NCBI GenBank assembly: GCA_030770535.1
Contig: JASVEC010000015.1
Location: forward strand, 186,001 to 250,000
Direction: 5' to 3'
DNA: 64,000 nucleotides
DNA from: Batkoa obscura
Lineage: Eukaryota
The notes under the pieces: model-generated
What the model was told of the DNA's origin: nothing
Database searches by the model: none
The model's input: the letters and a program-made list of their open reading frames with translations, nothing else
Program-made: the position numbers and the translations under genes
In this document: positions 48,815 through 64,000 of the stretch, one piece after another
Layout of the letters: each line of letters begins with the position of its first letter
Numbering within the stretch: position 1 is the stretch's first letter

Positions 48815-49141
48815 TTAAATACTATTGATAACCTTCTTAATCCAACTTCTTGCCTTCTTTTTGGTAAACTTATTAAATGGAGCAGGGATACCACCTGCAT
48901 TCCTACTCACTTCAATAGCTACACTAGCACCAATTGGTAGTAAAGGTTTTGATGTTGCTTTAGCTAAACTTTGTTTATAATCCGATATTTTTTGGTTTGC
49001 TTTTTCAGTTGCTTTACCAACCACATAACGATGAGCTAAATCCATGGCTATATCGGTACCTAATTTAACACCTACTCTAGCTAGTGATGCACTAGTAACA
49101 AAGTATAAAGACAAGAGAAACAACAGAAAGAATTTAAACAT
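48815..49141 (-). CDS. Secreted cationic micro-protein family, paralog 1 (108 aa)
   Basis: Signal peptide MFKFFLLFLLSLYFVTSA; C-terminus KKKARSWIKKVINSI; conserved with its paralogs. Confidence 0.85.
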   Translation of the reverse strand: MFKFFLLFLLSLYFVTSASLARVGVKLGTDIAMDLAHRYVVGKATEKANQKISDYKQSLAKATSKPLLPIGASVAIEVSRNAGGIPAPFNKFTKKKARSWIKKVINSI

Positions 49142-50119
49142 ATTTTTATATAGGCTAGCTGATAAGTATTTTATATTATACCAATTATCTAATATTCTAA
49201 TTGTGAATTGAACGCTTTTTACACCCTTATCGCTATTTTAGACAATACGTGACTAGTTTATTAATAGTTTTAACGCATCAAAAACTAATTTATTAACAGC
49301 TTTAATGTGTAATAAGAACTAATTCATTAAGCATAATAGTATATCATTAAGAACAAATTTATTTATTTATTTACTTTCTACAGTAATTGTAGAGTTTATC
49401 TTATTAATATTCATAAACAAGCATGTCTGCTTAATTTATGAAGCTAGAGGCGTAAGTTAAAAAGTCTTCATAATGAAGGGCATAAAGGGAGAATAGGCTC
49501 AATTTTTTTACACAAACCTATTGTATATGTTAAAGATAATATATATAGCTTTATATCAAATTGTTCATTTTTAATATTTAGTTGAAAGAAAATATTACTA
49601 GTAGTAAATTCTTTATCAACAGTCATGTTTTGGCTCAAAACAAAAAACTGTCCCAATGTAATATACTTTGAAGTTTTAACTATATGTAAGAACTAATTCA
49701 ATTGATTATAAACTGGAATTGTATTAAATTTGTGAAATTACAATAAAGTTGTGTAAAAAATTATATATATTGTAATCCTGAACTCATTATAATATACTAT
49801 TACTTTTACTTTAATCCAACTTAAAATTTTATGTTGTTTTCTTTATATCTCAAAGAAAGGTAATCTAACAAATTTTAAACTTGATACAATTATACATTAT
49901 ATTTTGTATAATAGATTTACTACAAAATTTTTTATCCCATCGTCAAAAATTTTTATCCAATATTTGTATTAGCTTTTTAGCCTCCTCCTGTGGGTTATTT
50001 ATTATTCAATATGTTAATTTGGAAAATTAGTATGTGCTTTTAAAATAATATATAACAGAAATTAATAAAAACATAAAAAATATGTTTAAAACTAATAAAA
50101 ATGTCAAATTTTTATTCAT

Positions 50120-50446
50120 TTAAATACTATTGATAACCTTCTTAATCCAACTTCTTGCCTTGTTTTTGGTAAACTTATTAAATGGAGCAGGAATAGTTCC
50201 TATAGCATTTTGATTTATCTTAACAACCATATCAGCAGCACTTGTTGGTAAAGTTTGTGCTGGCTTAGGTAAGCTTTGTTTATAATCCGATATTTTTTGG
50301 TTTGCTTTTTCAGTTGCTTTACCAACCACATAACGATGAGCTAAATCCATGGCTATATCGGTACCTAATTTAACACCTACTCTAGCTAGTGATGCACTAG
50401 TAACAAAGTATAAAGACAAGAGAAACAACAGAAAGAATTTAAACAT
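50120..50446 (-). CDS. Secreted cationic micro-protein family, paralog 2 (108 aa)
   Basis: First 59 aa identical to paralogs 1 and 3; C-terminus KNKARSWIKKVINSI. Confidence 0.85.
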   Translation of the reverse strand: MFKFFLLFLLSLYFVTSASLARVGVKLGTDIAMDLAHRYVVGKATEKANQKISDYKQSLPKPAQTLPTSAADMVVKINQNAIGTIPAPFNKFTKNKARSWIKKVINSI

Positions 50447-51751
50447 ATTTTTATATAGGCTAGCTGATAAGTATTTTATATTATACTAATTATCTAATAT
50501 TCTAATTGTGAATTGAGCGCTTTTTATACCCTTATCACTATTTTAGACAATACGGAACTAGTTTATTAATGATACTAATAAGTATTAAGAACCAATTTAT
50601 TAAACATAACAACATGCTATTATGAATTGTTTTATGATTTATTTTCTATATTAATTGTAAAATTTAGTTTTTTAATTTTCAAGAATTATGGTTACTCAAT
50701 TTCTGAAGCTAATATATTTTTTCTAGAATACTTTAACAAAAGTTGCTATTAAAGTGACCTTAGATAAAATAAAGCTTACTTTGACGCAACTTTATCTTAA
50801 ATACAGCTAATTAAATAAAATTCAAAACCAAAATACTTATTTTAATTTAGTATAGACTTTATGGTAAAGAAGGGTTAATATATGGCAGAGTCACTTTAAT
50901 AGCATAGTTAAGTATACTATTATATTGTTCTCATCACTTCAGTAATGGGCTTAATAAATGACTTTTCGAAATAATAAACTCCACTACTTTATTTATTTCA
51001 CTGTTCCTTTTATGTTTTGTAGCTTTTACTCGATTTTATAATTTCACAGAACTATATTTTTTGGAAATTAGGTGGTGTACATTGTTATAATAGTAATTAG
51101 AAAATGTTTTTTAATTTTCATAATAAAACAAATTCTAATCAAAAAGGATCTTTTAATAAGTAATTCAAAAATAAAAATTATTGTTGCAGTAAAGAACTTT
51201 ATCCTTTTTTTAGAAAAACCATTAGGCTATTTATGAAGTTATCTGATAGTCAATCCTTTATTTGCTATCTTTTATAAAAGTTTAAAATTTTGAATTTTGT
51301 TATTTATTACAATTTAATTAATCCTCATGTTTAAGAAAATACACTAGTATTGATTAGAGGCCAAACCGCCATATCATTAGTAAAATTAGGTATGAGAGAT
51401 CTAAAGGTAATTATCAGTCCATGTCGATTCAGACTGAAAATATTTTATCAATGAGAAGTACCGAAATCCGTTTATTAAAATCTTTGAGTATAAATCGTTT
51501 TCACTTATAGTAATTAAAATTACAATAGTATGGTTTTATCTTTTGAAAAAGTAAACGTTTTTAGTTGGGCTGACAGAGCCCAATGTATATTTACCAGTAC
51601 ATTCTAAGGTAGTAACTACTGTAAAATATCGAGTATAAAGCAATATAGGCCCAAACATATGTATTAGCTTTTAGTCTCTTATAATAATAAAAATTAACTA
51701 AAGAAATACAAAATATAACTAAAATTGATGAAATATCAACCTTTTATTGAT

Positions 51752-52078
51752 TTAAATGCTATTAGCAATCTCTTTAATCCAACTTCTTGCCTTTTTTTTA
51801 AAAAGTTTATTAATCTGAGCAGCACCAGCTGCTCCTGCATTTTGATTTACTTTAACAACCATATCAGCAGCACTTGTTGGTAAAGTTTGTGCTGGCTTAG
51901 GTAAGCTTTGTTTATAATCCGATATTTTTTGGTTTGCTTTTTCAGTTGCTTTACCAACCACATAACGATGAGCTAAATCCATGGCTATATCGGTACCTAA
52001 TTTAACACCTACTCTAGCTAGTGATGCACTAGTAACAAAGTATAAAGACAAGAGAAACAATAGAAAGAATTTGAACAT
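51752..52078 (-). CDS. Secreted cationic micro-protein family, paralog 3 (108 aa)
   Basis: Start placed at 52078 by homology; C-terminus KKKARSWIKEIANSI. Confidence 0.85.
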   Translation of the reverse strand: MFKFFLLFLLSLYFVTSASLARVGVKLGTDIAMDLAHRYVVGKATEKANQKISDYKQSLPKPAQTLPTSAADMVVKVNQNAGAAGAAQINKLFKKKARSWIKEIANSI

Positions 52079-61657: not shown

Positions 61658-62971
61658 TTTATGAATGTTAGCTATCAGTTATTATGTACTATATTGATTG
61701 ATACTTTTATTTCTTATGAATCGGATGCTTTTTATACTATCTGCTTTCCCTACATTGATATGAATTCATTTTTCAAAATATTAATAGTATTAATTTTATT
61801 TTTATCTTTAATACTACGAGTTCATTTAAAAATATTAATTTATCTTTTATTATTTATTTATTTACTTTTATAGTAATCATCCAGTTTACTTTTTTAATCT
61901 TCATAAATGTATATAGTTCTTAATTTACGAAACTAGTTTGAATATTTTGTTTTGTTTGTTTTTATTTATTTATTATTCTTATTAAATCATTCTTATTAAA
62001 TCATTCTTATTAAATTATTCAATCTATTATTCTATAAAGGTTATTTATAGTAATGTCATTTCTATCTTCAATATTTTGTTTATTCTTTTGAAATAAATTT
62101 TAAAATAATCTTTAGTTAAATATTAAAATGAAAATGCCACTTCCATATTCAGATTTTAATATTTTTAATTAATTTAATAATCTTAAAACAGTCAATTTAT
62201 AACTTTTAAGCGTTTTTACCTATTTGTAAATTAGAGCGAGATAAGATACCATAAAGGTAAGCAAGGTGTTTGTAGGAACTATTAGATTGCGGGAAGACTT
62301 TCAGTTTCCTATAAACCATCCAAAGACGATAAGAAATTATATTGAACTCATTTAAATTTGTTCCTTTGTATGCTCAAACGGACATGATAGGTTGCGGAAG
62401 TAGAAAAAAAGGGAGTTTTCATATAATAATTTGGGACAATTGAGGTGAATTACTTAGATATGTTAATCCTTCAATCCTATATAAACAACTCAACTTACTA
62501 AATAAGTATACATACTAGATGTCTGTATAACTTCGAATCTTTTTACTTTATATGATGTTCTAATACAACAGTTTCAATTTTTATAATACTCTTGACAAAC
62601 TTAATCAATAGCTCAATTATAAAGTTAAGTTTAAAATTTTATTTTTATTTCTTTATTTGTAAATGCCTTATGTTATTTTTTTATAGCAGTTTTCTAAATA
62701 TTTTTAAAATAAAATATACCCAGTAATTTTTTCAATACTGATTTAATAGCAACACTTTATAGTTTGTTTACAGAGTCTTTAGATTATTATGTGTTGGCTG
62801 TTTTAAAAGCTTGTTATTTAATATATACACTTATTGCATTTTAAAGAAATAAGCCACTTTTAATAAAAGTTAATGGGATTGCTTGTCATGTAATAGTTTA
62901 ATAGGTGAACCTAAAACACCTTATTTGGTATATCACTTTATTGAAAAAAGTCTCTTTCACAAAAGTTCATT

Positions 62972-63071
62972 TGGAGACGTTTTTTTGGCTTCATCACTTT
63001 TTCGATCCTTTAAGCATTATTTAAGTGAAAAAATTCTTGATAAAATTCTTAAACACAAAAGATATATCTCT
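62972..63071 (-). mobile_element. MITE (~97-bp family), diverged
   Basis: GGAGACGTTTTTTTGGCTTCATC...AAATTCTTAAACACAAAA. Confidence 0.65.
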
Positions 63072-63923
63072 CGTTTTATAGTCATACTAAAATTTTAACA
63101 TAAGAGAAATAAAGTAATGAAGTCAAAATCGACATATCTTTCAAAACTATATTTATTATATTTGACGATTTAATCCTCTTTACCATCATACTATTTTAAA
63201 ATAAAGTAAGCTTGTTTTATTTTTGGTACTAGTCCACAATTTCATAGTCTTCAATTCAGCCTCGATAACCTAACATTTATCAAAATACTAAATAAGTTTT
63301 TTATGTAAACCTTCAATAAACAAACCATGTCAAGAGCTAACATACATTAGATATAAGAACCTCTTGAAAAATCTAAATTTGAAGCGAATAGTTGTTTCTG
63401 CACCAATATTTATGAGACCTCAGGTTTATCACCAGTAGCATTAATTACATATCACAGTGCAAAGCAGCTTTGAGCTTACAAAATAAAACAGTATTTCCTA
63501 AAACTCAAACTATTGTGTTATCCTAGGATCGGTCATGAGATATCTAAAAGTATTTAATAACTCAGATTGAGTTCAATTAAAAGCTGTAGTTAACGGGAAT
63601 GACTGATGTTAGTTAGATAATAAACGGACCATAAAGCATTTGTTTCTGATTGTATGTTAAGCAATCTACTGGAAACCAGATTCCGCTGTAATATTAAAAG
63701 GTAATTAATGATTAGTCATCATCATAGTTTTTGGCTAGTTCATAAACGAACTCATCACATAATAACTACTCTAGGTCATCGAGGTTAAGGGGTTTTTTGA
63801 TCCTAAAACTTTAAAATTACATTTGATAAAAGTCGAACTTATAAACATTTAATAAAATTAGAATTCAATAGCAATAATATAAAATGTAGTCAAATCTAAC
63901 AAAAATATCAAATTTTTATTAAG

Positions 63924-64000
63924 TTAAAGACTATTGACGATCTTTTTAACCCATCTCTTTCCGAACTTCTTATTATGATACTTATTGAATAGCTCAACAC
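63924..64000 (-). CDS. Secreted cationic micro-protein family, paralog 7 (3' end only; runs off the window)
   Basis: Minus-strand translation ...VELFNKYHNKKFGKRWVKKIVNSL*; stop at 63924-63926. Confidence 0.75.
   Translation of the reverse strand, partial: VELFNKYHNKKFGKRWVKKIVNSL

What the first reader, a model, noticed from the sequence alone, without database searches (positions are those of the whole stretch)
48815..64000. Tandem array of at least 7 secreted, Cys-free peptide precursors ending in a conserved cationic amphipathic helix
Seen: seven co-oriented paralogs (five complete, one pseudogene, one cut by the window edge). The five complete ones are intronless and share one layout: a signal peptide, an N-terminal amphipathic segment (SLARVGVKLGTDIAMDLAHRYVVGK, GILRAGVKLGTEVAKDLAHRYVVGK or SKVIKAAEGVGKIITDQVH), a variable Pro/Lys-rich spacer and a terminal motif. 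The tails are RSWIKKVINSI (x2), RSWIKEIANSI, KRWVKKITNRF, KRWIKKIIDSF, RSWIQKIVNKL and KRWVKKIVNSL. Hydrophobic residues fall at W, +1, +4, (+5) and +8, forming one helical face, after Lys/Arg clusters with KK/KR pairs in most copies. Established: short cationic amphipathic helices are the design of melittin/cecropin-type lytic peptides, and fungi release the cytolysin candidalysin from the Ece1 precursor by Kex2 cleavage at KR. Inference: an undescribed multigene family of membrane-active toxin, antimicrobial or effector precursors, possibly yielding two peptides each. I do not recognise it as a known family.
Basis: partly seen in the sequence, partly recalled or inferred. Interest (0 to 1): 0.9.

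Follow-up and report, generated by a model that had tools for sequence, protein, structure and literature searches.

The report
Fungal tandem array of magainin-like proteins
An insect-infecting soil fungus carries a run of at least eight related genes (two broken) for small, cysteine-free, strongly positively charged proteins that are predicted to be secreted and that likely damage bacterial membranes in the manner of frog and insect antibacterial peptides, a design rarely reported from fungi.

Summary
The array is real and larger than reported: eight co-oriented copies (five intact, two broken, one cut by the edge) in Neoconidiobolus thromboides (Entomophthorales). Each intact protein has a signal-like N-terminus and a Cys-free mature part of 73-124 aa, net charge +9 to +14. 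It is predicted as helix, Pro/Lys hinge, then an amphipathic Trp-containing tail. Signal and tail show purifying selection, a TATA box is kept in four of five intact copies, and copies 1-3 are mosaics. No Pfam family fits. Two leads point to a membrane-active role. One tail matches only magainin-2 in the PDB (E 0.02-1.1; likely convergence). The N-terminal helix resembles the start of each cationic core in mushroom Kex2-processed repeat proteins of type #139 (borderline; homology about 60%). Best reading (0.5): secreted whole, binding and disrupting anionic, mostly bacterial, membranes. Secretion, expression and activity are not shown.

The parts
48815..49141 (-). g1, intact, 108 aa; signal-like 49088-49141, tail 48818-48850; TATA position altered at 49216-49223
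   Evidence: near-identical to P0003 (2 substitutions)
50120..50446 (-). g2, intact, 108 aa; mosaic (middle like g3, tail like g1); TATAAAAA at 50521-50528
   Evidence: P0001 (1 substitution)
51752..52078 (-). g3, intact, 108 aa; TATAAAAA at 52155-52162
   Evidence: P0002 (2 substitutions)
   Evidence: (family D5)
55764..56039 (-). g4, intact, 91 aa; KR directly before the tail Trp; TATAAAAA at 56111-56118
   Evidence: P0005 is the same protein called with a 22-aa upstream extension
57933..58205 (-). broken copy: no start codon at the aligned position, two adjacent in-frame stops; TATA position altered
61343..61657 (-). g6, intact, 104 aa, most divergent copy (31% identity to g1); TATAAAAA at 61729-61736
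   Evidence: P0004 (1 substitution)
63924..64000 (-). last 24 codons of the edge copy; equals the end of P0006 (142 aa, two N-terminal modules); the magainin-like tail

Best explanation
The array holds at least eight tandem copies of a gene for a small, cysteine-free, strongly cationic protein that is predicted to be secreted and likely binds and disrupts anionic, mainly bacterial, membranes through two predicted amphipathic helices joined by a proline/lysine-rich hinge. Shown: the genes, their charge and composition, the periodicity of the tail, selection on signal and tail, and the mosaic structure of g1-g3. Inferred: signal peptidase removes about 18 residues; the 73-124-residue chain leaves largely uncut, unstructured in water, and folds on a membrane surface; the Trp/Lys tail is the main membrane anchor and the N-terminal helix the older, shared module; a cut at the Arg before the tail may occur in some copies. 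Inferred role: holding bacterial competitors off soil litter and insect cadavers. The mature chain matches one core of a mushroom type #139 Kex2 repeat protein in size, charge and first 30 residues, so this fungus may repeat the gene where mushrooms repeat the core.
For: Mature parts: net +9 to +14, 0 Cys, 3-10 Pro in 6 of 6. Hydrophobic stretch right after M-x-K, Kyte-Doolittle 11-mer 2.3-2.7, and no later 19-mer above 1.0 in 6 of 6. Tail moment 0.67-0.78 with low mean hydrophobicity 0.16-0.47, the profile of bacteria-selective helices (general knowledge). The edge-copy tail matches 3 PDB sequences at E<=10 among 177,635, all magainin-2 (E 0.022, 0.76, 1.1; 9-10 of 16 identical). Tail pN 0.11-0.30 against pS 0.35-0.85 in 6 of 7 pairs; the seventh, g1-g2, has almost no change. 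TATAAAAA 79-84 nt upstream in 4 of 5 intact copies, altered in 2 of 2 broken copies. AlphaFold2 gives separate helices and no compact fold (pTM 0.20, 0.22). The only non-Neoconidiobolus hit among 1.84 billion proteins is a secreted repeat precursor whose five cores match at their first residues; its named relatives are type #139 KEPs with cores of +6 to +11 between acidic spacers of -2 to -8, the layout of antimicrobial peptide precursors (general knowledge). The species is described as a saprobe and opportunistic pathogen (PMC6169396, passages).
Against: No activity, secretion or protein evidence. SignalP was not available. Expression is not shown: in the one run laid, one contig of depth 3.5 covers g1 and extends about 20 nt past its TATA position, so it may be DNA. 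The magainin query was chosen after a weak hit (E 0.99), the best score is to a chain with Trp where the other two have Phe, and 2 of 2 other tails gave no PDB match. No Pfam antimicrobial family matches 5 whole proteins, P0005, P0006 or 8 fragments (best Coleoptericin E 0.11, below cut-off). The N-terminal segment of g1-g3 is barely amphipathic and nearly neutral. The KEP match is inflated by repeats (best repeat 12.6 bits), g1-g3 score at background against KEP profiles, and a human MANF helix reaches 14.6 bits by chance. Type #139 has no known function, and synthetic peptides of other Coprinopsis KEPs showed no antibacterial activity (PMC9769878, passage).
Confidence: 0.5

Rival explanations
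1. Insect-directed cytolytic toxin or immune effector, possibly released as a short tail peptide by a Kex2-type cut.
For: Host is an entomophthoralean insect pathogen; tandem expansion, gene loss and mosaic copies are typical of host-interaction genes; an Arg precedes the tail Trp by one or two places in 7 of 7 tails; cuts after single Arg were seen for mushroom KEPs (PMC9769878, passage).
Against: No long hydrophobic segment; KR in 2 of 6 whole proteins, followed by basic residues; no acidic pro-region to shield the producer; none of 18 S8 proteases of this species was classed as a kexin in PMC6169396 (passage; may be a screening gap).
Confidence: 0.2
2. Surface-active or adhesive coat protein, like the Ustilago repellents: amphipathic chains that coat hyphae or the forcibly discharged spores and stick them to anionic surfaces such as cuticle.
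For: Fungal KEP-derived amphipathic peptides act as repellents (cited in PMC7329392 and PMC9769878); the shared module links to a mushroom KEP type with eight copies in one non-pathogen; near-neutral N-terminal helix in g1-g3.
Against: Net charge of +9 to +14 and a Trp/Lys tail fit membrane binding better than self-assembling films (inference); the low cover in run X1 does not suggest an abundant structural transcript, though that run is uninformative on level.
Confidence: 0.15
3. Not secreted to the outside: a basic, signal-bearing protein acting inside fungal or host cells (nuclear or nucleic-acid binding), as reported for the cysteine-free CFP of Beauveria bassiana.
For: CFP (120 aa, signal peptide, basic nuclear signal) localised to the nucleus and was not detected outside (PMC8546967, abstract); Lys clusters precede the tails here.
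Against: No sequence link to CFP surfaced; a tandem, mosaic, species-specific array is unlike a single conserved regulator; helical periodicity of the tail is not needed for a nuclear signal.
Confidence: 0.08
4. A decaying family without present function.
For: 2 of 8 copies are broken; g1 has an altered TATA box; expression is not shown.
Against: Five ORFs are open in both the window and the FSU 785 proteome, 6 substitutions in 543 residues and no stop; pN below pS in signal and tail; TATA kept across copies 31% alike.
Confidence: 0.05

Closest known systems
Linear cationic alpha-helical antimicrobial peptides (magainin-2; cecropin type)
   Same: Cys-free, cationic, amphipathic helix; edge-copy tail 9-10 of 16 identical to magainin-2 chains; tandem gene family (cecropin clusters, recalled).
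   Different: No Pfam match; mature chain 73-124 aa instead of 20-40; fungal host; similarity is short and best read as convergence; no acidic pro-piece.
Kex2-processed repeat proteins, type #139 / S-2 of Hypsizygus marmoreus (Umemura 2020, PMC7329392) and unnamed relatives P0007, P0009, P0010
   Same: Signal peptide; Cys-free cationic core of 72-95 aa; first 30-31 residues align without gaps from the mature start (hhalign 29.0 forward, 12.5 reversed); helix then Pro-rich hinge.
   Different: One core per gene (two partial in P0006), no acidic spacers, no Kex2 sites between modules, and a Trp/Lys tail that #139 cores lack; g1-g3 score at background; function of #139 unknown.
Candidalysin / Ece1 of Candida albicans (PMC5784256)
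   Same: Fungal, secreted, Cys-free precursor with an amphipathic cationic element.
   Different: Candidalysin is a 31-aa peptide cut out at two Arg sites of a 271-aa precursor (abstract); here no paired sites, no long hydrophobic segment, no sequence similarity found.
Rep1 repellents of Ustilago maydis
   Same: Fungal secreted amphipathic peptides.
   Different: Repeat precursor cut by Kex2, surface-active role (cited titles only); no match surfaced.

Membership tests
KEP (Le Marquer 2019 definition, PMC6339444) | signal peptide | tested here: met
   by hydropathy and inspection only, 6 of 6; SignalP not available
KEP (Le Marquer 2019 definition, PMC6339444) | at least three internal repeats | tested here: not met
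   one module in 5 of 6 proteins, two in P0006
KEP (Le Marquer 2019 definition, PMC6339444) | KR, RR or KK sites between repeats | tested here: not met
   no dibasic pair between the two modules of P0006
KEP type #139 core family | homology of the core | tested here: inconclusive
   P0006 first module 23.6 bits, p 2.2e-9 (about 4 expected by chance among 1.84 billion); Hypsizygus-only profile 16.2 bits; g4 12.1, g6 9.7; g1-g3 at background; 544 control ORFs at most 4.9
KEP type #139 core family | acidic spacers ending in xxAR around each core | tested here: not met
   present in 12 of 12 repeats of P0007, P0011, P0012 (nine end in AR, three are C-terminal), absent from 6 of 6 array proteins
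Linear cationic alpha-helical antimicrobial peptides | Cys-free, net positive charge | tested here: met
   0 Cys, +9 to +14 in 6 of 6 mature parts
Linear cationic alpha-helical antimicrobial peptides | amphipathic helix | tested here: met
   computed only: tail moment 0.67-0.78, p 0.009-0.052; helix in low-confidence models
Linear cationic alpha-helical antimicrobial peptides | member of a named sequence family (magainin, cecropin, melittin) | tested here: not met
   no Pfam match above cut-off; magainin PDB match short, E 0.022-1.1
Linear cationic alpha-helical antimicrobial peptides | kills microbes by membrane disruption | not testable with these tools
   needs MIC and vesicle assays
Candidalysin/Ece1-type cytolysin | toxin peptide of about 31 aa flanked by two Kex2 Arg sites | tested here: not met
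   no such paired sites; KR in 2 of 6, leaving 9 residues
Candidalysin/Ece1-type cytolysin | long hydrophobic segment (recalled) | tested here: not met
   best 19-residue Kyte-Doolittle mean after residue 20 is 0.24-1.0
Rep1-type repellents | surface-active film or fibril formation | not testable with these tools
   needs biophysical assay

The most novel reading that the evidence does not exclude
These are the first linear, magainin/cecropin-like antibacterial proteins of an early-diverging fungus, and they share an ancient N-terminal helix with mushroom KEP type #139. That would define one cross-phylum fungal family of membrane-active peptides, amplified by gene duplication in Entomophthorales and by internal repeats with acidic spacers in mushrooms, and would give a first function to an orphan KEP type.
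Probability: 0.3. Interest if true: 0.85.

Novelty: new variant of a known kind. Interest (0 to 1): 0.62.

Why it matters
Ribosomal antimicrobials known from fungi are mostly cysteine-stabilised (general knowledge); linear amphipathic ones are rare, with candidalysin as the main example. This family is cheap to test directly, since the natural chains and tails can be made and assayed. A positive result would show how an entomophthoralean fungus keeps bacteria off its food, add a natural peptide scaffold, and suggest a role for a mushroom KEP type that has none.

Tried and rejected
No RNA holder was listed; one run found by species label was laid once. In it the bins over g2, the 5' half of g6 and the edge copy had no cover, which is no evidence either way; cover of g3 and g4 could not be separated from nearby repeats. 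Metagenome scans: 0 of 589 and 0 of 126 pattern matches confirmed; viral contigs 0 of 23. A mixed module profile against 7,995 longer candidates returned only the 11 proteins already known. ESM Atlas: no usable hit for g3; one 0.77 hit for a P0007 repeat, below lead level. PDB: no meaningful match for A1, A2, A4 or two other tails. Both AlphaFold2 models were too weak for a fold search, so none was run. Calibrating strain divergence failed: 0 of 10 window proteins, six of them neighbours, were in the collection exactly. Rfam: 0 matches. Earlier findings: nothing in 4 look-ups. Rejected: the source name 'RsmC methylase' and the FACT-Spt16_Nlob hits of P0007-P0012 (repeat-inflated); Coleoptericin and Egg_lysin (E 0.11, 0.14); MANF (E 0.13); the C-terminal NKL of g6 as a peroxisomal signal (1 of 6, signal peptide present); the 100-bp repeat as part of the system (it is spread over the whole window).
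Full report
Observation. A repeat scan showed seven copies of the signal-coding DNA, one of them new at 53558-53624; it belongs to an eighth, broken copy at 53339-53608. Apart from the family, 47,000-64,000 holds one stop-free frame of 90 codons or more, which looks non-coding. A profile of the five intact proteins found 6 of 330 candidates, all hypothetical proteins of Neoconidiobolus thromboides FSU 785 on one contig. They differ from the window at 6 of 543 residues, so the window is another strain or assembly. P0006 gives the whole edge copy: 142 aa with the N-terminal module twice.

Anatomy. Each protein begins M-x-K, then about 12 hydrophobic residues and small residues near position 17-18; there is no second hydrophobic stretch. 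This is read as a signal peptide without SignalP. The mature parts are 73-124 aa, net +9 to +14, without Cys. AlphaFold2 draws a helix after the signal, a coil in the Pro-rich part and a terminal helix, at low confidence (mean pLDDT 57 and 60). The last 11 residues have hydrophobic moments of 0.67-0.78 (p 0.009-0.052 against shuffles); over 18 residues only g3 and g6 stay below p 0.05. The first 18 mature residues are amphipathic in g4, g6 and P0006 but not in g1-g3.

Signs of working genes. TATAAAAA lies 79-84 nt upstream in g2, g3, g4 and g6, and is altered in g1 and in both broken copies; the chance per 20-nt zone is 0.009, though paralogs are not independent. In 7 pairwise comparisons the signal has pN 0-0.21 against pS 0-0.69, and the tail pN 0.11-0.30 against pS 0.35-0.85 in six pairs, on only 6-7 synonymous sites; the spacer is near neutral and poorly aligned. 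g1, g2 and g3 are identical over about 160 nt of the signal end and N-terminal module while g3's upstream DNA differs widely; g2 follows g3 in the middle and g1 in the tail. Gene conversion or unequal crossing-over is the simplest reading (inference). Expression is unresolved. Run X1 is spliced at six joints in the neighbouring gene (contig depth 158-267); g1 is covered by one contig of depth 3.5 that extends past its TATA position and may be DNA.

Processing. The KEP literature gives KR or RR, less often KK, as Kex2 sites (PMC6339444, passages), and acidic residues are favoured after cleaved sites (PMC2515848, passages). KR occurs in 2 of 6 whole proteins and is followed by W-V-K-K; there is none between the modules of P0006. 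One survey classed none of the 18 S8 proteases of this species as a kexin (PMC6169396, passages). An Arg does precede the tail in all seven tails, and single-Arg cuts were seen in mushroom KEPs (PMC9769878, passage), so a cut is possible; I put the two-peptide model at about 0.3.

Outside relatives. An exhaustive profile search of 1.84 billion proteins gave 5 hits: four from this family and P0007 (E 3e-7), a 516-aa signal-bearing precursor with five cationic cores and acidic spacers. Its named relatives are Hypsizygus marmoreus RDB19075.1 and RDB19301.1, listed as KEP type 139 in the supplement of PMC7329392 (passages). The match is the N-terminal module, aligned without gaps from the first residues of each core. 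The E-value is inflated by repeats: the best repeat has 12.6 bits, though 2,000 shuffled five-fold repeats reached at most 19.4 against 47.2 and the reversed protein 3.3. In reverse, profiles of KEP cores rank P0006's modules, g4 and g6 first (23.6, 13.9, 12.1, 9.7 bits) above 544 control ORFs (at most 4.9) and reversed proteins (at most 6.1); g1-g3 are at background. A Hypsizygus-only profile gives P0006's first module 16.2 bits; neither was in the first search. Profile-profile scores are 27-29 forward against 12.5 reversed and at most 19.0 in 200 column shuffles. A p of 2e-9 still allows about four chance hits in the whole library, and an unrelated MANF helix reached 14.6 bits in the PDB. 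I give homology about 0.6, convergence the rest.

What it works like. The edge-copy tail matches only magainin-2 in the PDB (three sequences, E 0.022-1.1). The query was chosen after a weak hit, and two other tails gave nothing, so this is a lead on design, not kinship. High charge, low hydrophobicity, no membrane-spanning stretch and no shielding acidic piece fit selectivity for anionic bacterial membranes better than melittin- or candidalysin-type lysis (inference from general knowledge; candidalysin facts from the abstract of PMC5784256). Hence 0.5 for an antibacterial membrane-active role, 0.2 for an insect-directed toxin or effector, 0.15 for a coat or adhesive, 0.08 for an intracellular role like Beauveria CFP (abstract of PMC8546967), 0.05 for decay.

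Novelty. No Pfam family fits. The array fails the KEP and candidalysin membership tests. Nine literature searches listed no paper on this family; I saw most results only as listings, read passages of 10.1101/2023.09.13.557621 and PMC12387763 without finding it, read the abstract and Discussion of PMC9769878, and did not see the species' genome paper. Small unannotated genes in related fungi could have escaped the protein searches. Verdict: a real, undescribed, apparently species-restricted family; a new variant of the linear cationic amphipathic peptide kind, with function untested.

Noticed in passing
window 56564-56667 and 17 further places from 11714 to 63068: A roughly 100-bp interspersed repeat in both orientations, 78-95% alike, with very many contigs in run X1; looks like a MITE-type element and is not confined to the array.
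   Followed up: partly
window 24568-26088 (-): Two consecutive frames of 281 and 224 aa split by one stop, with motifs recalled from DDE-type transposases; no Pfam family above cut-off.
   Followed up: partly
window 56800-57450: Decayed high-copy repeat between g4 and the broken copy; summed contig depth in the thousands in run X1, no long open frame.
   Followed up: partly
window 35385-42860 (-): A 2,491-codon single open frame that reads as a neurofibromin/IRA-type RasGAP by inspection; not scanned.
   Followed up: no
window 7741-8595 and 8742-9557 (-): Tandem pair of pirin-like genes; the first matches Pfam Pirin at E 1.4e-28, the second was not scanned.
   Followed up: partly
window 636-3959 (+): Multi-exon kinase with a long coiled coil, ROCK/MRCK/citron-like by inspection.
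   Followed up: no
window 44856-46900 (-): Spliced gene, asparagine-synthetase-domain-like by inspection; six intron-sized joints with GT-AG ends in run X1.
   Followed up: partly
window 22594-23286 (+): A 230-aa Gly/Ser/Asn-rich protein with a signal-like start and no Pfam match.
   Followed up: partly
window 32736-33341 (-) and 34154-34843 (+): Divergent pair of 200-230-aa genes with no Pfam family above cut-off.
   Followed up: partly
proteins P0007, P0009, P0010: Unnamed JGI records with 5, 6 and 3 repeats of the type #139-like core; two carry the source name 'RsmC methylase', which looks like a mislabel. They extend this KEP type beyond the single genus listed in PMC7329392 if they come from another fungus.
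   Followed up: partly
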